Shown: piece after piece, positions 12,849 to 35,037 of the stretch
How the letters are laid out: every line of letters starts with the position of its first letter
Position numbering within the stretch: the stretch's first letter is position 1
NCBI RefSeq assembly: GCF_009914755.1
Contig: NC_060927.1
DNA from: the human T2T-CHM13v2.0 reference genome, Homo sapiens
Direction: 5' to 3' (one strand)
DNA length: 64,000 bases
Program-made: the position numbers and the translations under genes
Notes under the pieces: generated by a model
Told to the model about the DNA's origin: nothing
The model's database searches: none
Seen by the model: the letters and a program-made list of their open reading frames with translations, nothing else

Positions 12849-13302
12849 GGCTGGGTATGGTGGCTCATGCCTGTAATCCCAGCACTTTGGGAGGCCAAGG
12901 GGGGTGGATCACGAGGTCAGGAGATTGAGAGAATCCTGGCTAACACGGTGAAACCCCATCTCTGCTAAAATACAAAAAAAAATTAGCCAAGCGTGGTGCC
13001 ATGTGCCTGTAGTCGCAGCTACTCAGGAGGCTGAGGCAGGAGAATCACTTGATCCCAGGAGGTGGAGGTTGCAGTGAGCTGAGATCCGCCACTGCACTCC
13101 AGCTTGGTGACAGAGTGAGACTCTGTTTCAAAAAGAAAAAAATAGTGATCAAGGCATGAGTAGTAATCATTTCCTTATAAGTATGAAGGAAAATGTACAT
13201 ATTCTATTTAAAGTCACTACTGCTATTCAAAGTTGTATAGTTTTTTGGAGGCCTGGGTGACAGAGTGAGACTCCATCTCAAAAAGAAAAAAAGAAAACAT
13301 CT
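12849..13302 (+). mobile_element. Composite Alu: full AluS(c)-like copy, 108 bp filler and a second Alu 3' end, inside one 16-bp TSD
   Basis: TSD aaacatctgaaggtat at 12832-12847 and 13303-13318. Confidence 0.9.
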
Positions 13303-14980
13303 AAACATCTGAAGGTATTAAACTCACTGGTCAAAAAACAATTCAGAATAGTCTATAATTGGGATAAATAACAAGTAACTTATAACTGAGAGGATTTGGA
13401 ACCAAGTCACTGAGGAGGAAAAGGCTCCCATCCCCGTGTGCCATCTGGCACCCTGCTGGACACAGGCAAGGGAGTGAGAGTGTCACCACTGTAGCTTCCA
13501 GAGAAGACAAGGACATCACTGCCTCAGCTGCCGCTACTGCCATTTTCACCTGCAGCCACTTGCCAGTGGATCATGGTGGACAGGAGGCAGGACTAGACTG
13601 CAGCTCAGACTTGGGCGAATTAAGCAGTGTGTGGAGGTTTGCATCATGAATTTTTGCCCCAGAAATGACTGCAGGAATAAATAAGGAAACCCTAGAGGAC
13701 CCACAGGCCCTCTGAAGAAAGCGGATTGTTCCTACAGGACCTGGGAGACACCCCAAATACTGTGGGTGCCCAAAATGTAGAAGTGGGAAAGGGAGATCAT
13801 CCACCCTTGAACACACACCCTCACTGGGGAAATGAAAGGTCAAGATTACAGGAGAAGATTCTGACCTTACCTGGAGCTGAGACAATTTAGAGAGCTGAGT
13901 GAAATTCAGGGGTAGAGGAAGCAGCAGGAGGAAGCCTGTGATCTTGCTCGTTCCCCTAGCAAACCATTTCTGCCTAGCTTCACAGACATCCATTGCAAAG
14001 GGAAAGAGGCACTGGGAAAAGGCCACAGAGAGGAGGAAATCTCCAGCTGAACTTTGTAACAATTTGAATTGATCAGGAAGTCTCCTGGCCAGAAGTCAAG
14101 GGAGGCTGTGAATCTGGCATGCGGACTCCACAGGCAGGGGAAGAAGAAGAAAAGCCATACTTGCTTTCACAGCTGGGAGGTGGGTAGCCTGGGGCAAGTT
14201 CTCAGCCCTGCTTGCTCACTGCCTGGAAACAGGCTCAGTGCTATTGTTGGGGAATGGTGGGAGTGAGACCGCATTTTGGATTCCGTGGGGGCTGGGTGAA
14301 GCCTGTGACTGCGGACTTTCCCCCACTTTCCTGACATCCTGCATGGCACAGTAGAGACAGCCATAATCCTTCTAAGAACATAACTCCATTGACCTGGGAA
14401 CCTCACCGCCACCCCCTCCAACAGCAGCCACAGCAAGACCTGCCCAAGGAGTCTGAGCTCGGATATGCCTAGCCCTGCGTCCACTCAATGTTCCTTCCTT
14501 ACCCACCCTGGCAACTGAAGACAAAGGACATATACTCTTGGGAGTTCTAGGGCTCCACCCACCACCTATTCCTCCCCATACTACCACAGCTGATGCTCTC
14601 TAGAAAGTGCCACCTCCAGAAAGGAAGCCAACCAGCACAAAAACAGCACATTAAACCACCAAAGCCAAGAACCCTCACAGGGTCTATTTCACTCCCCTGC
14701 AACCTCCACCATAACAGGTGTTGATATCCATGGCTGAGAGACCCACAGATGGTTCACGTTACAGGACTCTCTGCAGACAACCCCAAGTACCAGCCCAGAG
14801 CCTGGTAGACTTAGTGAGTGGCTAGATCCAGAAGAGATATAACAATCACTACAGCTCATTTCTCAGGAATCCACTTCCACAGGAGAAGGGGGAGAGTCAT
14901 CAAGGAAATACTCCATGGGACAAAAGAATCTGAACAACAGCCTTTAGCCCTAGACATTTCCTATGGCAGAGCCTACCCAA

Positions 14981-16003
14981 ATGAGAAGAAACCAAAAAAC
15001 CAAATCTGGTAATATGGAAAAACAAGGTCCTTTAACACATACAGATCACACTACCTCACCAGCAATGGATCGAAACCAAGAAGAAATCTCTGATTTACCT
15101 GAAAAAGAATTCAGGAGGTTAGTCATTAAGCTAATCAGGGAGGCACCAGAGAAAGGCAAAGCCCAATATAAGGAAATCAAAAAAAGATAGAAAAAGTGAA
15201 GGGAGAAATATTCAATGAAATAAATAGCATAAATTAAAAAACCATCAAAATTTCAGGAAATAATGACACACTTATAGAAATGCAAAATGCTCTGGAAAGT
15301 CTCAGCAATAGAATCAAACAAGTAGAAGAAAGAAATTCAGAGCTTGAAAACAAGGTCTTCAAATTAACCCAATCCAACAGAGATAAAGAAAAAAGAATAA
15401 GAAAAAATGAGCAAAGCCTCCAAGAAATCTGGGATTACATTTAATGACCAAACCTAAGAATGATAATAATAGTAAGTGTTCCTGTGGAAAAAGAGAAATC
15501 TAACAGTTTGAAAACATATTTGGAGAAATAATTGAGAAAAACTTCCCCAGCCTTGCTAGAGACCTAGACATCCAAATACAAGAGGCACAAAGAACAACTG
15601 GGAAAGTCATCACAAAAAGATCATCACCTAGGCACAGTGTCATCAGGTTATCTAAAACTGAAACAAAGGGGAGAATCTTAGGAGCTGTGAGACAAAAGCA
15701 CCAGGTAACCTATAAAAGAAAAGCTATCAGATTAACAGGAGATTTCTCAGCAGAAACCAACAAGTTAGAAGAGATTGAAGCTCTATCTTCAGCCTCCTCA
15801 AACAAAACAATTATCTGTGAATAATTTTGTATCCAGCAAAACTAAGCTTCATATATGAAGGAAAGATACAGTCTTTTTCATACAAACAAATCCTGAGAGA
15901 GTTTACCCCTACCAAACATGCACTTCAAGAACTGCTAAAAGCCGCTCTAACTCTTGAAACAAATCCTGGAAACACATCAAAACAGAATCTCTTTAAAACA
16001 TAA
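14981..16003 (+). pseudogene. L1PB ORF1 remnant
   Basis: MRRNQK...ISDLPEKEFRRLVIKLIRE, with multiple stops and frameshifts. Confidence 0.85.
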
Positions 16004-16081
16004 ATCTCACAGGACCTATAAAACAATGCAATTTAAAAAACAAAAACAAAAAACCAAGGTATACAGGCAACGAATAGTACA

Positions 16082-19000
16082 ATGAATGAAATGGTACCTC
16101 ATATCTCAATACTAACATTGATTGTAAATGTCCTGAATGCTCCACTTAAAATATACAGAATTGTAGAATGGATAAGAATTCACCAACCAATTATCTGCTG
16201 CCTTCAAGAGCCTCAGCTAACACATAAAGACTCACATAAACTTAAGGTAAAGAGGTGGAAAAAGACATTTCATGCAAATGGACACCAAAAGTGAGCAGGA
16301 GTAGCTATACCTACAACAGACAAAACAACCTTTAAAGCAACAGCAGTTAAAAAAGACAAAGAGGGACATTATATATGATAAAAAAGCCTTGTCAAACAGG
16401 AAAATATCACAGTTCTAAACATATATGTGCATAACACTGGAGCTCCCAGATTTAAAAAACAATTACTACTAGAACTAAGAAATGAGATAGACAGCAACAC
16501 AATAATAGTGGGGGACTTCAATACTCCACTGACAGCACTAGACAGGTCATCCAGACTGAAAGTCAACAAAGAAACAATGGATTTAAACTATATCCTGAAA
16601 CAAATGGACTTAACAGATATATACAGAATATTCCATCCAACAACCACAGAACATACATTCTATTCAATAGCACATGGAACTTTCTCCAAGATAGATCATA
16701 TTATAGGCAACAAAATTAGTCTCAATAAATTTTAAAAAATTGAAATTATATCAAGCACTCTGTCAGATCACAGTGGAATAAAACTGGAAATTAACTCCAA
16801 AAAGAACCTTCAAAACCATGCAAATACATGGAAATCAAATTACCTGCTCCTGAATGATCATTGGGTTAAAAATTTAAAAACTTATTTGAACTGAACAGCA
16901 ATAGTGACACAACCTAGCAAAACCTCTGGGATACAGCAAAGGTGATCATAAAAGGAAAGTTCATAGCCCTAAACACCTATATAAAAAAGTTGGAAAGAGC
17001 ACAAACAGACGATTTAAGGTCATACCTCAAAGAACTACAGAAACAAAAACAAACCAAACCCAAACCAAGCAGAAGAAAGAAAATAACCAAGGTCAGAGCA
17101 GAACTAAATGAAATGGAAACAACAACAATAACAACAAAGTGAAACATAAAGCTGCTTATTTGAAAAGATAAATAAAATTTCTAAACTATTAGCAAGATTA
17201 ACTAAGAAAAGAAGAGAGAAAATCTAAATAAGCTCAATAAGAAACCAAATGGGAGATATTACAACTGACGTCACAGAAATACAAAAGATCATTCAAGGCT
17301 ACTACGAACACCTTTACCCACATAAACTAGAAAACCTACAAGACATGGATAAATTCCTGGAAAGATACAACCCTCCTAGCTTAAATCAGGAAGAATTACA
17401 TACCCTGAAGAGACCAATAACAAGCAGTGATATTAAAATGGTAATTTAAAAATTACCAATGAAAAATGTCCAAGGCCAGAAGGATTCACAACTAAATTCT
17501 ACCAGACATTCAAAGAAGAATTGGTACCAATACTATTGATGCTATTCCACAAGATAGAGAAAGAAGAAACCCTCCCTAAATCACTCTATGAAGCTAGTAT
17601 TACCCTAATACCAAAACCAGGAGAGAACATAACCAAGAAAGAAAATTACAGACAAGTATCCCTGATGAACATAGATGCTGAAATCTAACAAAATACCAGC
17701 TAACTGAATCCAACAACATATCAATAAGATAATTCACCATGATCAAGTGGGTTTCATACTAGGGATGCAGGGATGATTTAACAGACACAAGTCAATAAAT
17801 ATGGTATGCTACATAAACAGAATTACAAACAAAAATCACATAATAGTCTCAATAAATACAGAAAAAGCATGCAACAAAACCCAGCATCCCTTTGTGATTA
17901 AAACTCTCAGCAAAATCAGCATAGAAGGGACATACCTTAATGTAATGAAAACTGTCTATGACAAACCCACAGTGAACATAATACTAAATGGGGAAAAGTT
18001 GAAAGCATTCCCTCTGAGAACTGGAACAAGACAAGGATTCCCACTCTCACCACTTCTCTTCAACATAGTAGTGGAAGCCCTAGCCAGAGCAATCAGACAA
18101 GATAAAGAAATAAAGGGCATCCAAATTGGTAAAGAAGACATCAAATTGTCACTGTTTGCTGACGATATAACTGTTTACCTTGAAAACCCTAAAGACTCCT
18201 CCAGAAAGCTCCTAGAACTGATAAAAGAATTCAGCAAAGTTTCCAGATAAAAAATTACATTACATTAGTACTTAAGTCATATAAGTCATATAGTACATAA
18301 TGTAATTACATTACATTAGTACATAAGTCAGTATCTCTTCTATACATCAAAGTAACCAAGCTGAGAATCAAATCAAGAACTCAACCCATTTTAGAATAAC
18401 TGCAAAAATAATAAAATACTTAGGAATATACCTAATCAAGGAGCCAACAGACCTCTACAAGGAAAACTACAAAACAGTGCTGAAAGAAATCATAGAAAAC
18501 AGAAACAGATGAAAACACATCCCATGCTCATGGATGGGTAGAATCAATATTGTGAAAATGACCATACTGCCAAAAGCAATCTACAAATTCCACGCAATTC
18601 CCATCAAAATACCACCATCATTTTTCACAGAATTAGAAAAAACAATCCTAAAAGTCATATGGAACCAAAAAATGGCCTGCATAGCCAAAGCAAGACTAAC
18701 CAAAAAGAACAAATTTGGCAGCATAACATTGCCTGATTTCAAACTATACGGTAAGGTCATAGTCAACAAAATAGCATGGTACTGGTGTAAAAACAGACAC
18801 ATAGACCAATGGAACAGAAGAGGGAACCCAGAAATAAACCAAAATACTTACAGCCAACTGATTTTCAACAAAGCAAACAAAATCATAAAGTGGGGAAAGA
18901 ACACCCTTTCAACAAATGGTGCTGAAATAATTGGCTAGCCACATGGAGGGGAATAAAACTGAATTCTCATCTCTTACCTTACACAAAAATCAACTCAAGA

Positions 19001-19939
19001 TGGATTAAGGTTGTAAATCTAAGACCTGAAGCTATAAAAATTCCAGAAGATAACACTGGAAAAACCTTTCTAGACATTGGCTTAGGCAAGGATTTCATGA
19101 CCAGAATCCCAAAAGCAAATGCAATAAAAACAAATGTAAATAGCTGGGACTTAATTAAACTAAAGACCTTTTGCATGGCAAAAGGAACAGTCAGCAGAGT
19201 AAACAGACAACCCACAGAGTGGGAGAAAATCTTCACAATCTATATGTCTGACAAAAGACTAATATCCAGAATCTACAATGAACCCAAACAGATCAGCAAG
19301 AAAAAGCCAAACAATCCTATCAAAAATAGGCTAAGGACATGAATAGATCATTATCAAAAGAAGGTATACAAATGGCCAACAAACATGAAAAAATGCTCAA
19401 CATCACTAATGATCAGGGAAATGCAAATCAAAACCATAGTGTGATACCACCTTACTCCCAGAAGAATGCCATAATCAAAAAAGCAAAAAACACTTGATGT
19501 TGGTGTGGATGCAGTGAAGAGTGAACACTTCTACATTGCTGGTGGGAATGCAAACCAGTACAGCCACATGGAAAACAGTGTGAAGATTCCTTAAATAACT
19601 AAAATTAGATCTAGCATTTGATCCAGCAATCCTACTCCTGTGTATCTACCCAGAAGAAAGTAAGTTATTACATGAAAGTTATATTATATTATAGCAGCCC
19701 ATTCACAATTGCAAAAAATGTGGTAACAAAACAAATGCTCATCAATCAATGAGTAGATAAAGAAACTGTGATATATTTATATATATATGATGGAATACTA
19801 CTCAACCATAAAAAGGAATGAATTAATGGCTTTCACAGCAACCTGAATGAGATTGGAGACTGTTATTCTAAGTGAAGTAACTCAGGAATGGAAAACCAAA
19901 CATCATATGTTCTCACTCATAAATGGGAGCTAAGCTATG
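16082..19939 (+). pseudogene. L1PB ORF2 (EN-RT) remnant
   Basis: [34 protein letters not shown] and LFADD motifs lie in broken frames. Confidence 0.9.
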
Positions 19940-20150
19940 AGCATGCAAAGGCATAAGAATGACACAATGGACTTTGAGGACAAAAGGGTAAAGGGTGGAA
20001 AAAGGGTGAGGGTTAAAAAACTACAAATAGGGTGCAGTGTACACTGCTTGGGTGACAGATGCACTAAAATCTCACAAATTACCACTAAAGAACTTACCCA
20101 TGCAACAAAACACCACCTGTTCCCCAGTAACCTATGAAAATAAATTTAAA

Positions 20151-20259
20151 ATAACCTAGGTGATGAGTAGGTAGGTGCAGCAAACTACCATGGCACGTGT
20201 TTACCTAATTACAAACCTGCATATGTACCCCAGAACTTAAATAAACAAATAAACAAATT
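20151..20259 (+). mobile_element. Short L1PA-type 3' end within the L1PB tail
   Basis: ggtgcagcaaactaccatggcacgtgtttacct...acaaacctgc...atgtaccccagaacttaaataaa. Confidence 0.8.
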
Positions 20260-21349
20260 AATTAATTTATAACTAAAGTATAGTGACTAAAAGACAAAAA
20301 CCTATTAAAAATAATAATAACTGGGGAGATCTGGCAAGATGGCGGAATAGGAACAGCTGTGGTCTGCAACTCCCAGTGAGACAAACGCAGAAGGCGGGTG
20401 ATTTCTGCATTTCCAAATGAGTGGTGCCTGGAACCCCAGTGAGAGAGAACCATTCACTCACTTGGAAAGGGGGCTGAAGCCAGGGAGCCAAGTAGTCTCG
20501 CTCAGCTGGTCCCACTCCCATGGAGCCCAGCAAGCTAAGAACCACTGGCTTGAAATTCTCACTGCCAGCACAGCAGTCTGAAGTCTACTGGGGATGATTG
20601 AGCTTGGTAAGGGGAGGGGCATCCACCATTACTGAGGCTTGAGTAGGCGGTTTTCCCCTGACAGTGCTAAGGAGACCAGGAAGCTCAGACTGGGCAGAAT
20701 TCAACACAGCACAGCAAAGTGGCTGTGGCCAGACTGCCTCTCTAGATTCCTCTTCACTGGCAGGGCAGTTCTGAAAGAAAGGCAGCAGCCTCAGTCAGGG
20801 GCTTATAGATAAAACTCCCATCTCCCTGAGACAGAGCACCAGGGGGAAAGGACGGCTGTGGGTGCCGCTTCAGTGGACTTAAATGTTCCTGCCTGCCAGC
20901 TCTGAAGACAGCAGTGGATCCTGACAAGAAGGGTTTTCCCAGCACAGTGATCAAGCTCTGCTAAGAGACAGACTGCCTCCTCTAGTGGGTCCTGGACCCC
21001 CATGCCTCCTGACGGGGAGAGACCTCCCAACACAGGTTGACAGACACTTCCCACAGGAGAGGTCTGGCTGGCATCAGGTTGGTGCCCCTCTGGGATAAAG
21101 CATCCAGAGGAAGGAGGAGGCAGCAATCTTTGCTGTTCTGCAGCCTCTGATGGTGATACCCAGGCAAACAGGGTCTGGAGTGGACCTCCAGCAAACTGCA
21201 GCAGACCTGCAGAAGAGGAGCCTGACTGTTAGAAGAAAAACTAACAAACAAAAAGCAATAACATCAACATCAGCAAAAAGTACACCCACATAAAAACCCC
21301 ATCCATAGGTCATCAGCCTCAAAGATCAAAGGTAGATAAATCCATGAAG

Positions 21350-22053
21350 ATGAGGAAAAACCAGTACAAAAATGCTGAAAATTACAAAAACCAGAATGCC
21401 TCTTCCCCTTCAAATGATCACAACTCCTCTCCTGCAAGGGAACAAAACTGGAATGAAGAGGAATGAGCAAAGCCTCCAAGAAATATGGGGCTATGTGAAA
21501 AGACAAAACCTGTGATGGATTGGGGTCCCTGAAAGTGATTGAGAGAATGGAACCAAGTTGGAAAACACAATTCAGGATGGTATCCAAGAGGACTTCCCCA
21601 GCATAGCAAGACAGGCCAACATTCAAATTCAGGAAATACAGAGAGCACCACTAAGAAACTCCTCGAGAAGAGCAACCTCAAGACACATAATTGTCAGATT
21701 CTCCAAGGTTGAAATGAAGTAAAAAATGTTAAGGCCAGCCAGAGAGAAAGGTCAGGTTACCTACAAAGGGAAGCCCATCAGACTTACAGTGGATCTCTCT
21801 GCAGAAACCCTACAGCTAAAAGAGAGTGGGGGCCAATATTCAACATTCTTAAAGAAAAGAATTTTCAACCCAGAATTTCATATCCAGTCCAGCTAAGCTT
21901 CAGAAGTGAAAGAGAAATAAAATTCTTTACAGACAAGCAAATGCTGAGGGATTTTGTGACCACCATGTCTGCCTTACAAGAGCTCTGAAGGAAGCACTAA
22001 ATATGGAAAGGAACAACCAGTATCAGCCACTGCAAAAACACATCAAAATATAA
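21350..22053 (+). pseudogene. L1PA ORF1 remnant with internal deletion
   Basis: MRKNQ start, junction at about 21452, then NEQSLQEIW-type sequence with stops. Confidence 0.85.
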
Positions 22054-22116
22054 AGAACAACGATACTATGAAGAAACTGCATCAACTAATGTTCAAAATA
22101 ACCAGCTAGCATCATG

Positions 22117-25909
<3,793 letters not shown>

Positions 25910-26128
25910 ACAATAAGAACACATGGACACCGGGAGGGGAACATCACACACCAGGGCCTGTCAGGGGGTTGGGGGAAAAGGGAGGGAGAGCATTAGGACA
26001 AATACTGAATGCATGAGGGGCTTAAAACCTAAATGATGGGTTGATAGGTGCAGCAAACCACCATGGCACATGTAAAACCTGCACTTTCAGCACATGTATC
26101 CCAGAATTTAAAGTAAAATTTAAAAAAA

Positions 26129-27360
26129 CTAAGGAAATGTGAATAAACTGTGAACCTTAGTAATATTGTATTAGTGTTATTCCATTAACAAAGTGAGAAA
26201 TGTAGGATGGTAATAATAGGGAATTCCTGGTTTTAACTGCTCTCTAAATCTAACACTTTTAAAAAGTGAAATATATTTTTTAAAGTTTGTAGCCAAAGAA
26301 TATAAGAAAAAATATAGAGAGATGTCAGATAGTTAATATTAAATATTTTTTTCTAAATTATGTGATGGTTTTGGAATTTCCCAGCTACTTAAATCTACAA
26401 TTTGTTGTAATTTTCTTTCTCACTTTAAATAAATATTCATTTTCATCCTTAATTCTATATATGCAATTTATATTCTATTTGTTTTAAAAGGGCTGCCAAA
26501 ATTATATGAGCTTCAGACACCACCCTACCTTTAAGTGATGGTTAGTTATTTGCAGTTCCTTTCTATTCACTGAATACTCCCCCATGCCTCTATATTTTTG
26601 CATGTTGAAATTTTCTCTAATTTTCAAGGTAAGTCCATCTTGAGTGACAGAGACAATTTATCCAAAAACAATGAACTCAGTATTGTAAACCTGGATTGTC
26701 CTCCTAAATCAAGCCTTGTTCAGTATTAGCACCAACTTTCAGAAGTCATTTAACTTCTTCCTATGAGGAATCCCATTTCTGCCATTTGCCAGTTCTATGG
26801 CCTTGGCTAGCTACTTAACAAATTAACACCTTAATTTGCTCATCTGTAAAATGGAGATAATAACACTATGCAAGGATAGGGTTATCTTACAGCTGGACTT
26901 GAGAGGCTCTGTGCTTATCTCCGGGGACACCCGGAAGTATGCTACTGACCCTTGGTCAAGATAAGAATGGGATGTTACAGCTAGTGATTTAGAACATGTC
27001 ATTTAGTTTAAAGTTCAAAACTCCCCTGGAGGCACTCCATGTTATCTTGTCTACACTGTTTAGGATATATGGATTCATGGTTTGCATCTGGTTTAACCTG
27101 TTACACAGCTTGGCTGTAGCGAAGTGACCAGTCAGGCGTAATAGGCCCTTCAGTAAACTTCCATTTGGACTATGCTGAACTTAGATACCCCATACATATC
27201 TGAAAAGTTCATAATCCAAAGATGAAATGCTTCATAAGCAACTGAGAAAAGACCTTGGGAGGACTGCACTGGGAGTTTTCAGACTTCCTATAATTGCCTG
27301 GACTTTTCTTCTCTTTGTGTGCCGTATTATTTGCAATTATTATAGCCTTACATGAGTGTA
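26129..27360 (+). other. Putative 3'-transduced flank: L1MC/MD 3' fragment, unique DNA, MIR (about 26765-26868) and an old LTR (26869-27360) truncated at its poly(A) site
   Basis: Lies between the L1PA7 tail and the point where the host L1MA resumes. It is followed by an A-run and a degenerate TSD. Confidence 0.7.
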
Positions 27361-28754
27361 AAAAAAAATAACAACAGCAATGGTTAAGAGATAGGCAATA
27401 TTAAAATATGTAAATTGAATCATCAATAAGTCATAATTTGGGGGGTATGGTATTAATGTGTAATTTGGTTTTGTTGCTTTTCTTTGCAATAAACCTTGTT
27501 TTATCAGTTTAAAATAACCTGTTATAATTATAAGATGTTTTCCACAAGCCTCATGGTAACCACAAAGCAAAACCCTATAATAGATACACTAAAAATAAAT
27601 AGCACAGAATCAAAACATACTATTATAGAAAAATACTTAATGACAAAGGAAGATAGTAAGAAAGGAAAAATGGAAAAATGATTTGCAAAACAACCAGAAA
27701 ACAAGCAACAATATCCTTACCTATGAAAAATAACCTTGAATGTAGGTGGAGTAAATTTTCCAATTAAAAGGCATAGAGTAGCTGAGTGGATAACAAGTAA
27801 TGCCAATTAGAGGCTGTCTACATGAAATGCAGTTCACCTATAAAGACATACACCAGCTAATAGTAAAAGGATAGAAAATGATATTCCATGCAAATAAAAA
27901 CCAAAAAGTGTAGAAGTAGCTATACTTATGATAGATAAAATAGACTTTAAGTATAGAATGGGGGGAAAAGGACAATAAAGTCGTTACATAATTACAAAGG
28001 GGTCAATATAACAAGAGGATATAACAATTGTAATTATATGCACCCAACACCAGAGCACCCAATTACATAAAGCAAGTATAAATAGACCTAAAAGGAGAGA
28101 TTGATTACAATACAATAATAGTAGAGGACTTCAATACCCCCACTGTCAGCAATGGACAGATTATTCTGATTGAAAATCAACAAAGAAATCTTGGAGTTAA
28201 ACTGCACTTTAGACAAAATGAACCTAGCAGGTATTTATAGAACATTTCACCTAACAGCTGCAGAACACACATTCTTTTCATCAGCACATGGAACATTCTG
28301 CAGGATTAACCATATGTCAGGAGACAAAACTTGCCTTACGAGATTTTTAAAAATGGAAATCATATTAAATATCTTTTCTGACCACAGTGGAATACAAGCA
28401 GAAATCGATAACAGAAGGAATGTTGGAAACTGGAGAAATTTATGACAATTAAGCAATATGCTCCTGAAATAATGAATCAACCAATGAAGTCATCAAAAAG
28501 GAAATTTAAAAATTTCCTGAGATAAATGAAAATAGAAACACAGCATACTAAAAGATATGTGATACAGCAAACACAGGTATAAGAGAAAAATGTATAGTAA
28601 TAAATGCCAAGATTGAAAAAGTAGAAAGACCTCAAATAAACAATCTAACAATGTACCTAAAGAAAACAGAAAAGCAAGAACAAAGAGAACTTGAAATTAT
28701 TAGAATGGGAGAAATAATAAAGATCAGAGCAGAAATAAATGAAGTTGAGACTCA

Positions 28755-31521
<2,767 letters not shown>

Positions 31522-33628
31522 AAAAAAAATTCACAAAAGATAATAAAATGAAAAGTTGGTTTCTTGAAAAGATAAACAAAATCATCAATCCTTTAACTAG
31601 ACTAAGAAAAAAAGAGAGAAAACCCAAGTAAATAAAATCAGAGACAAAAAAGGAAACATTACAAGAGACATGACAGAACAAAGGATTATTAGACACTATT
31701 ATGAACAACTATAGGCCAATAAATTGGAAAACCTAGAAGACATCGATACATTTTTGGAAACATGCAACTTACCAACATTGAATTATAAAAAAGTAGAAAT
31801 CTTGGACAGACCAACAATGAGTAATGAGATCAAAGCAGTAATTAAGTCTCCCATTAAAGAAAAGACTGGGACCTGATGGATTCACTGCTGAAATCTATTA
31901 TACAATTAAGAAAGAACTAATACCAATTCTATTCAAACTATTCCAGTAAAATTGAAAAGGAGGGAATAATTTTAAACTCATTCTTTGAGGCCAGCATTAC
32001 TCTGATACCAAAACCAAACAAGCATACAGCAGCAACAAAAAAGAAAATAACAGGCCAATATCTGTGATTAACAAACATACACAGATAATGAGCAAAATGC
32101 TAGCAAACCAAATTAAACAACACATTCGAAGTATCATTTACCATGATCAACTGGGATTCATCTCATGGATTCAAACATGGTTCAGTATATGCAAATCAGT
32201 AAATGTGATACATTAACGGAATCAAGGAAAATATGTGATCATTTCAATAGATGCTGAAAAAGTATTACTTAATACTTAGCACCCTATTATGATAAAAACT
32301 CTGAACAAACTGAGTTCAGAAGGAACATACATCAAAACAACACAGGCGATCTATGACAAACCCATGCCTACCATCATACTCAATGGGAAAAAAGTAAAAG
32401 TATTTCCCCTAAGATCTGGAACAAAACAAGAATGCCCATTTTCACTACTTTTATTCAACAAATTACTGGAAGTACCAACCAGAGCTATTAAGCAAGAGAA
32501 AGAAATAAAGAATATTCAAATTGGAAAGGGAGATATCAAAATATCCTTGTTTATGGATGACATAATTCTATATTTAGAAAAATCTAATGACTTCACTGAA
32601 AACATTAGGATGATAAAAACAAATTTAGTAAAGGTTCATAATACAAAATTAACATACAAAAATTAGTAGCATCTCTATATATTATCAGCAAGTAATTTTT
32701 TAAAATAAAAAAAGCAACCCATTTGCAGTAAGAAAACACAACAACAACAAACATGCCTAGGAATAAATTTAACCAAAGTATTAAAAGTTCTCTACAATAG
32801 AAATTATTAAACACTGATGAAATAAATTGAGGAGCACACCCCAAAATTGAAAGATACCATGCGCTAGTGTATTGGAAGAATTAATATTGTTAAAATGATC
32901 GTACTATCTAAAGCTATCTACAGATTCAATGTAATCTCCATCACAAGACTAAAATTCCCCACAGAGATAGAAAAAATAATCCTATAATTTGTTTGGAACC
33001 ACCAGAGGCCTGGATAGCCAAAGCAATCCTGAAAGAAAAGAACAAAGCTGGTGGTATCATACTTACTGGACTTCAAGATACACTAAACAACTTTAGTGAC
33101 CCAAACTGCATGGTACTGGCATAAAAGCAGACACATAGGACCAATGGAAGAGAATAGAAAACACAGAAATAAATCCATGCACTTATAGGAAACTTCTTTT
33201 TTTTTTTTTTTAAATACAAAAGCACCAAGAACTTACATTGCAGAATGCACAATCTCTTCAATAAATGTTGCTGGGAAAACTGGATATCCCATATCTAGTA
33301 CAATGCAGCACATTAAACTAGACTCCTATACCTCACCAGATACAAAAGTCAAATCAAAACGGATTAAAGCTGTAAATGTAAGACCTGAAACTGTAAAACT
33401 ACTAAAATGAAACATTGGGAAAACACTTGAAGACATTCATCTGAGCAAAGATATTTTAGGTGAGATCTCAAAAGCACAGGCAACAAAAGCAAAAATAGAC
33501 AAAGTGTATTACATCAAGCTAATTAGCTTTTGCATAGCAAAGAAAACAATAAATATAGTAAGGGAAAAACTACAGAACAGAAGAAAATATTTGCAAACTC
33601 TCCTTCTCAGGGATTAATGAAAATAATA

Positions 33629-34171
33629 TATAAAGGAGGTGGGAGACTGGCAGAACTTGTTCTCAGATCACAACGCTGCTGACTGAAACAGGATGTGGTC
33701 CAGACAGCATAAAGTGAAGAAACCAGCAGGAACCAGCAGATGGTGATGAAAGTAATCCCTAGCTGCCCTCATTGCGCATTGACATAAGACACTCCCATCA
33801 GTGCATGACAGTTTACAAATGCCATGGCAGTAACCTGAAGTTACCACTCCTTTCCATGGCAATGATCCAAAAGTTACTGCCCCTTTCCTAGAAAGTTATA
33901 TAACCTGCTCCTCAGTGTGCATTGACCTGTCCCTTAATTTGCATGTAATTGAAAGTAGGTTTAAGTAAGTATAAACACAGTTGCTAAGAGCCCATATGTT
34001 GCTTACTTTGGGTGAAATGGCTATGAGTTAGCCATGCTCCACAAGGAATAATACCATTCAATAAAAGATTGCTATCTAACACCTGTGACTCACCCTTGAA
34101 TTCTTTCTTGGGCAAAGACAAAAACCCTCCCAGGTTAAGCCCCAGTTTTGGAGTTTGCCTGTCCAGGAACA
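33629..34171 (+). mobile_element. MER41-family (MER41D/E-like) ERV1 solo LTR
   Basis: agacactcccatcagtgcatgacagtttacaaatgccatggca, aataaa and cccttgaattctttc. It interrupts the host L1 at aatatat|...|gaaactcaaacaactc. Confidence 0.8.
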
Positions 34172-34833: not shown

Positions 34834-35037
34834 AGTAGAATGGTGGTTACCAAAGGTCAAAAACAATAGGAGAGAGAAGATAATGAAGAGAGGTTAGTTA
34901 ATGAGTACAAAAATTTAGTTAGATAGAATAAGTTCAGTAGAATGGTGGTTACCAAAAGCCAAAAACAGTAAGAGAGAGGAGATTATGAAGAGAGGTTAGT
35001 TAATGAGTACAAAAATTTAGTTAGATAGAATAAGTTC
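34834..35037 (+). repeat. 102-bp tandem duplication in the L1MA 3'UTR
   Basis: 34834-34935 versus 34936-35037, with 6 mismatches. Confidence 0.95.

What the first reader, a model, noticed from the sequence alone, without database searches (positions are those of the whole stretch)
26129..27375. About 1.2-kb 3' transduction ending at an LTR's polyadenylation site
Seen: the host L1MA breaks at ...cctatt/aaaaataataataac (20307-20321). It does not resume after the L1PA7 tail (26128) but at 27361, aaaaaaaataacaacagcaatggttaagag (degenerate TSD). The intervening block holds an L1MC/MD fragment, a MIR and an old LTR, families that I expect to predate the L1MA host, so direct insertion into it is unlikely. 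The LTR stops at catgagtgta followed by an A-run, just after its expected (now degenerate) poly(A) signal, and lacks U5. Inference: a read-through transcript polyadenylated at the downstream LTR. The flank tags the source locus of a spliced-plus-transducing L1 insertion.
Basis: partly seen in the sequence, partly recalled or inferred. Interest (0 to 1): 0.72.

Follow-up and report, generated by a model that had tools for sequence, protein, structure and literature searches.

The report
L1 flank copy with vanished source
A LINE-1 jumping gene on human chromosome 3 carries a 1.2-kb copy of a stretch of chromosome 2, likely picked up when transcription ran past the end of its parent; no such parent LINE-1 stands at the chromosome 2 site, so the copy likely records an element later lost from our ancestors' genomes.

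Summary
Confirmed, with one correction. Window 26129-27360 has one full-length paralogue, C2:189854140-189855367 (87% identity). C2 is the donor: the old L1M piece, the SINE and the LTR-like element all continue there and are cut here. The host L1M pieces either side of the insert are colinear in 15 of 15 paralogues, with a 13-19 nt overlap. The cut lies 15-16 nt after the position where 7 of 13 LTR paralogues carry ATTAAA or AATAAA. Block and L1 are of like age (non-CpG p 0.101 and 0.095). Correction: no same-strand L1 lies in 19 kb upstream on C2. The junction there is an unscarred T|AAAAA endonuclease-type site, so the source L1 was probably never fixed, or was lost. Template switching and two-step insertion remain rivals. 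The L1 lacks a GT-AG 5'UTR intron; at least 10 other copies share the junction, whose acceptor lies outside the SpIRE classes seen in Larson 2018. All mechanisms are known; this is a clean old example.

The parts
20258..20322 (+). Host old L1 (L1MA-type, recalled label), piece before the break; region between ORF1 and ORF2
   Evidence: Colinear with 27361+ in 15 of 15 paralogues
20307..20321 (+). 5' copy of the target-site duplication, after a TT|AAAAA endonuclease-type site
   Evidence: Sequence; 13/15 to 27361-27375; register uncertain by a few bases
20323..26128 (+). Near full-length L1PA7-type element (label recalled), frames broken, ending in A7
   Evidence: 84-88% to other copies; longest ORF 173 aa; the same 3' end in 3 of 4 fetched copies
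20421..20422 (+). Splice junction: a 5'UTR intron (GT...AG, 318 and 343 nt in two unspliced copies) is missing after base 99 of the L1
   Evidence: Alignment A1, intron ends, recurrence
21451..21452 (+). About 325-360 nt missing from ORF1; ends are not GT-AG; the C18 spliced copy does not share it
26129..27360 (+). Transduced block, copy of C2:189854145-189855367; the A5 at 26124-26128 is also shared with C2
   Evidence: p 0.104 over 1217 columns, 12 gaps
26124..26520 (+). Old L1M 3' piece (approximate end), cut at its 5' side here and continuing upstream on C2
26752..26866 (+). Left part of a SINE (MIR by recall); its right part follows the LTR-like element on C2 only
   Evidence: 4 of 7 paralogues show both parts in order
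26867..27360 (+). Old LTR-like element, lacking the last 30-50 nt that C2 has
   Evidence: Pairwise alignments to 19 distinct paralogues; family not identified
27339..27344 (+). ATTATA (ATTACA on C2) at the position where paralogues carry ATTAAA or AATAAA; 15-16 nt before the cut
   Evidence: 7 of 13 paralogues covering the position
27360..27375 (+). A9 run (tail remnant plus start of the duplication) and 3' copy of the target-site duplication at 27361-27375
27376..28760 (+). Host old L1 resumes

Best explanation
The insert is an L1 plus a 1.23-kb copy of C2 DNA, likely made in one retrotransposition of a read-through transcript from a source L1 that likely once sat at the C2 junction and is absent there now. 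Steps: (1) inferred: a full-length L1PA7-type element inserted at C2:189854139|140 (T|AAAAA), its tail next to the block; (2) inferred: transcription passed the L1 end and an AATAAA 14 nt into the flank, and was cleaved 15-16 nt after the LTR-like element's signal; (3) shown as a sequence fact, inferred as splicing: a GT-AG intron of the 5'UTR was removed; (4) shown by hallmarks: the whole unit went into an older L1 on C3 at TT|AAAAA with a 13-16 nt duplication; (5) inferred: the source allele was never fixed or was precisely removed, leaving C2 empty. The age is that of the L1PA7-type wave, roughly 30-40 million years (dates recalled; Larson 2018 puts L1PA6 at about 27).
For: One full-length paralogue. 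Direction C2 to C3: three old repeats continue on C2 and are cut here. One duplication brackets L1 and block together, and the host is colinear across them. The cut follows the paralogues' ATTAAA/AATAAA position (7 of 13) and C2 has a T-rich stretch 20-35 nt after the cut; ATTACA and ATTATA are both listed as weaker signals in passages of PMC9684942. Ages agree: block non-CpG p 0.101 +- 0.009; L1 body against the C18 copy 0.095 +- 0.005. The 5' edge falls at T|A5, which occurs at 19 of 18,500 positions nearby, in the polarity a source L1 would need. Missing sources have precedent: 16% of transducing SVAs had none found (PMC12593883, passages).
Against: The source L1 is not there: no same-strand L1 in 19,139 nt, and no scar or leftover duplication at the site (17 of 18 paralogues span it without extra bases). 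An A-run at the junction is also what a template switch or an insertion into the L1 tail would give; 58 A5 runs lie in the same 18,500 nt, and a third of them follow T. A canonical AATAAA at 26142 (present on C2 too) had to be skipped, while the signal used is non-canonical in both copies. The tail is only A9 including the duplication. No sibling insertion with the same L1-flank junction was found (40 scored of 1790 candidates; 4 fetched). The age test cannot separate events a few million years apart.
Confidence: 0.75

Rival explanations
1. Template switch: reverse transcription began on a C2 transcript polyadenylated at the LTR-like element, copied 1.23 kb, and jumped at the A5 to the tail of an unrelated spliced L1 RNA. 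No L1 ever stood at the C2 junction.
For: Explains the scar-free C2 site and the A5 overlap. The antisense L1PA-type copy about 6.7 kb upstream has its 5'UTR facing the block, so an antisense promoter (recalled property) could supply a transcript. The same order, element 5' and cellular RNA 3', was proposed for SVA-CKS1BP (PMC12593883).
Against: The catalogued L1 chimeras put the foreign RNA 5' of the L1 (PMC13174262 section 10). It needs an abundant transcript of intergenic-looking DNA, not shown. Ordinary 3' transduction is common (183 high-confidence L1 cases in CHM13).
Confidence: 0.13
2. Two events: the spliced L1 inserted first; later the block came in on its own (retrocopy or orphan transduction) at the TTT|AAAA site in the L1 tail, with an all-A duplication.
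For: The L1 end is itself an endonuclease-type site; A7 and A9 flank the block; orientation would be forced to match.
Against: Block and L1 ages agree within error. It needs two rare events at one spot, and an orphan transduction would need a same-strand source upstream on C2, which is also absent.
Confidence: 0.09
3. DNA-level duplication or repair-templated insertion of the C2 stretch, not through RNA.
For: The block is unspliced and the tail is short.
Against: The 3' end sits at a polyadenylation position and is followed by an A-run and the duplication. The 5' end sits exactly at the L1 tail.
Confidence: 0.03

Closest known systems
L1-mediated 3' transduction (described in PMC9311842 and bioRxiv 10.1101/2021.07.12.451456; passages seen)
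   Same: L1, then a unique flank in the same orientation, then an A-run, all inside one duplication; a single source locus on another chromosome; end at a downstream polyadenylation signal.
   Different: No source element at the origin. Older than most catalogued cases. At 1.23 kb it is longer than the 7-997 nt range given for polymorphic cases.
SpIRE (spliced integrated retrotransposed element; Larson 2018, PMC5860796; passages, section 8 and S1 Table rows seen)
   Same: 5'UTR intron removed from the donor at about base 97-99; duplication, tail and endonuclease-type site; some SpIREs carry 3' transductions (705 bp in SpIRE97/622-13, 186 bp in SpIRE97/790-3).
   Different: The paper's classes (97/622, 97/790, 97/976, 97/853) are from L1PA1-PA6, and it found no 97/622 in L1PA7 or older. 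Here the acceptor lies only about 320-345 nt after the donor, and at least 11 copies share the junction.
Transductions with a missing source in SVA (PMC12593883; passages)
   Same: Origin locus traced, element absent, read as lost from the population.
   Different: Those are human-polymorphic SVAs; this is a far older L1 case in which the site can still be placed to the base.

Membership tests
L1 3' transduction | Extra sequence between L1 tail and 3' duplication with a source elsewhere | tested here: met
   C2 paralogue, 87%
L1 3' transduction | One target-site duplication around L1 plus flank, at an endonuclease-type site | tested here: met
   13/15 match after TT|AAAAA; host overlap 13-19 nt in 15 of 15 paralogues
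L1 3' transduction | 3' end at a polyadenylation signal followed by poly(A) | tested here: inconclusive
   Position fits the paralogues' ATTAAA/AATAAA (7 of 13), but the hexamer is ATTATA/ATTACA and the tail is A9 with the duplication
L1 3' transduction | Direction: the source is the ancestral, uninterrupted place | tested here: met
L1 3' transduction | Source L1 directly upstream of the flank at the origin | tested here: not met
   None on the same strand in 19,139 nt; empty T|AAAAA site. Confirmed membership is therefore withheld; it is filed as working like one, with a lost source inferred
L1 3' transduction | L1 and flank arrive together across species | not testable with these tools
   No other primate genome is held; ages agree within error
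SpIRE | Precise loss of a GT-AG intron starting at the 5'UTR donor near base 97 | tested here: met
   introns of 318 and 343 nt in two unspliced copies, GT...pyrimidine tract...AG
SpIRE | Recurrent identical junction at separate loci | tested here: met
   9 other loci of 40 scored span the 100-nt junction probe, plus the C6 copy; C18 and C6 checked by alignment
SpIRE | Acceptor is one of the published ones (622, 790, 853, 976) | tested here: not met
   Intron only 318-343 nt; so a SpIRE in kind, but not of those classes. No direct alignment to L1.3 was made
SpIRE | Reduced promoter activity of the spliced 5'UTR | not testable with these tools
   Needs a reporter assay
LTR (old endogenous retrovirus type) | Dispersed family with TG...CA ends, internal polyadenylation signal, known family match | tested here: inconclusive
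   Dispersed at 58-68% identity with shared start and signal; TG at the start on C2; no repeat library to name it

The most novel reading that the evidence does not exclude
The C3 insert is the only trace of a full-length, active L1 allele that stood at C2:189854139|140 some 30-40 million years ago and never reached fixation, and it belongs to an uncatalogued L1PA7-era class of spliced L1s (at least 11 copies) that used an acceptor which younger L1s no longer use. Old transductions with empty, endonuclease-type origins would then be a genome-wide fossil record of lost source elements.
Probability: 0.6. Interest if true: 0.5.

Novelty: new member of a known kind. Interest (0 to 1): 0.38.

Why it matters
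Each ingredient is known: 3' transduction, SpIREs with transductions, missing sources. The value lies in the clean old case. If the source was lost, the insert places an extinct active L1 to the base, and counting such cases would test how often ancient source elements failed to fix. The shared splice junction extends SpIREs back to L1PA7-type elements with a different acceptor. No gene, ORF over 173 aa or Rfam family is involved; the insert lies in an intron of a predicted lncRNA.

Tried and rejected
The antisense L1PA-type copy on C2 (189841094 to about 189847480) as source: rejected; wrong strand, 6.7 kb away, and more distant from the C3 L1 (non-CpG p 0.109 body, 0.139 5'UTR) than C18 (0.095 body) or C23 (0.090 5'UTR) copies. 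The ORF1 gap as a second splice: rejected; no GT-AG ends, not shared by C18. Sibling transductions: none among 40 scored; 4 hits that ran past the junction were A-rich chance; the C18 and C6 spliced copies do not carry the block. First SINE test on loci already held gave no hit for the right half; repeated on 7 new loci, 4 showed both halves. The comparison of C2 and C3 copies with paralogues is biased by the C2 query and was not used. The global alignments of the splice and ORF1 gaps were misaligned and were replaced. Rfam: 0 matches. Szak 2002, Pickeral 2000, Xing 2006 and the journal version of Hoyt 2022 were not held, and the Hoyt preprint's supplements are closed, so this locus may be listed in catalogues that were not seen.

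Full report
Observation. A 15-mer at 20307-20321 recurs at 27361-27375 with 13 of 15 matches. By itself that is weak in A-rich DNA: 3 and 8 window positions match the two copies at that level. The host test is stronger. I searched with the resumed host and fetched 14 of the 39 other hits, adding one on C2 already held. In 15 of 15, piece 20258-20322 and piece 27361-27510 lie next to each other with a 13-19 nt overlap. A third piece, 13230-13388, aligns just upstream in most of them (13 of 15 with at most 1 of 100 shuffles as good). The host is one old L1, broken here by a duplication-bounded insert of about 7 kb. Contigs are numbered; I take C2 as chr2 and C23 as chrX because the window's C3 is chr3. 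Repeat family names are recalled labels.

The source. The block has one full-length match, C2:189854145-189855367 (87%, 1505 bits); the other 33 non-self matches are short repeat hits. The alignment runs from the A5 at window 26124 to 27360, with p 0.104 over 1217 columns. C2 is the donor. The old L1M piece continues upstream across the junction without extra bases in 17 of 18 paralogues; the 18th did not reach far enough, and all were found with a junction-spanning query. The LTR-like element continues past the cut: 11 of 19 distinct paralogues align 25 nt or more beyond it, 3 stop between L017 1820 and 1865, and 5 end earlier. The SINE that it interrupts has its right half on C2 only; 4 of 7 paralogues show both halves in order and 3 do not.

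The 3' end. Of 13 paralogues that cover the position, 7 carry ATTAAA or AATAAA where C2 has ATTACA and C3 has ATTATA (27339-27344); the cut is 15-16 nt later. C2 has a T-rich stretch 20-35 nt after the cut. Both hexamers appear as less abundant signals in tables of PMC9684942 (passages). Which hexamer stood there at the time cannot be told. Against: an AATAAA at 26142, also on C2, was passed over, and the tail is only A9.

No source L1. No same-strand L1 match lies in 19,139 nt upstream of the C2 junction (five window L1 stretches as queries). The nearest L1PA-type copy is antisense and about 6.7 kb away, and is more distant from the C3 L1 than unlinked copies. The junction reads AGGT|AAAAAC, an endonuclease-type site in the polarity that would put an L1 tail against the block. 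T|A5 occurs at 19 of 18,500 nearby positions, any A5 run at 58. Since the rivals also need an A-run, this favours a lost source only modestly.

Age. Non-CpG distance of the block is 0.101 +- 0.009 (1202 columns); the C3 L1 body differs from the C18 copy by 0.095 +- 0.005 (3507 columns). Block and L1 are of like age. Larson 2018 dates L1PA6 to about 27 million years, and the Repeat Browser preprint places L1PA7 before the macaque-ape ancestor (passages). The 30-40 million year figure is recalled.

The splice. Against two unspliced copies, the L1 lacks a stretch of 318 and 343 nt that begins GT and ends in a pyrimidine tract and AG, at 20421|20422. A 100-nt junction probe is spanned by 9 other loci of 40 scored (946 candidates); one more hit reached partly across, and the other 29 break at the junction. 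The C6 copy comes, giving at least 11 copies. The C3 5'UTR is closer to an unspliced C23 copy (0.090) than to the two spliced ones (0.121, 0.115), which points to separate splicing events. A further gap of 325-360 nt in ORF1 is not splice-like and is private to this copy among those compared.

Mechanism. Best reading (0.75): one insertion of a spliced read-through RNA from a source L1 at the C2 junction, since lost. Shown: duplication, direction, bracketing duplication, end position, intron loss, empty origin. Inferred: the source element, read-through, single event. Rivals: template switch (0.13), two insertions (0.09), DNA-level copy (0.03). One genome cannot separate these; primate orthologues can.

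Comparison with print. 3' transduction is common (183 high-confidence L1 cases in CHM13; Hoyt preprint, passages). SpIREs with transductions are listed in Larson's S1 Table (rows seen). Missing sources and a template switch in the same order are reported for SVA (PMC12593883, passages). L1 chimeras in PMC13174262 (abstract and section 10) have the foreign RNA 5'. Searches gave no listing that describes this locus or an L1PA7-type spliced class; Larson found no 97/622 SpIRE in L1PA7 or older, and its supplements hold no 'L1PA7'. Several older transduction papers and the Hoyt supplements could not be seen, so absence from print is not established.

Verdict. Real; a new member of a known kind, with two twists (empty origin, uncatalogued acceptor). 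Interest 0.38.

Noticed in passing
G000 C18:59573573, C23:71808138, C14:23227304, C1:177605270, C23:56919355, C8:72619340, C23:93670727, C18:54007264, C14:48612997; C6:54664882: Ten other L1 copies that span the same 5'UTR splice junction: a likely L1PA7-era spliced class. Only C18:59.57M and C6 were aligned.
   Followed up: partly
L017 about 610-620 (C2:189854110-189854120): The old L1M piece on C2 lacks about 70-75 nt relative to paralogues, ending about 20 nt before the junction. It does not cover the junction, so it does not explain the missing source.
   Followed up: partly
window 13389-20266: A second full-length L1 interrupts the same host, with TTATAACT at 13380 and 20267 as likely duplication; a further L1PA-like 3' piece lies at 20153-20257.
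   Followed up: partly
window 28770-31510: Younger L1 with a 5' inversion (28770-29583 minus, about 29581-31510 plus) in the same host; ATTCACAAA at 28761 and 31529. A 19-nt unit repeated 2.5 times at 31501-31548 may be a local duplication or a very short transduction.
   Followed up: partly
window 33636-34170: An LTR-like insert (by eye) in the host L1; the host from about 11650 to 35280 has collected at least four large inserts.
   Followed up: no
window 34834-35037: Tandem duplication of 102 nt, 94% alike, in the host 3' end.
   Followed up: no
L076 and L059 (C18:59566800-59573800): The C18 spliced copy is followed by two matches to its 5' flank about 50 nt apart, so its duplication is ambiguous or it has a short extra 3' piece.
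   Followed up: no
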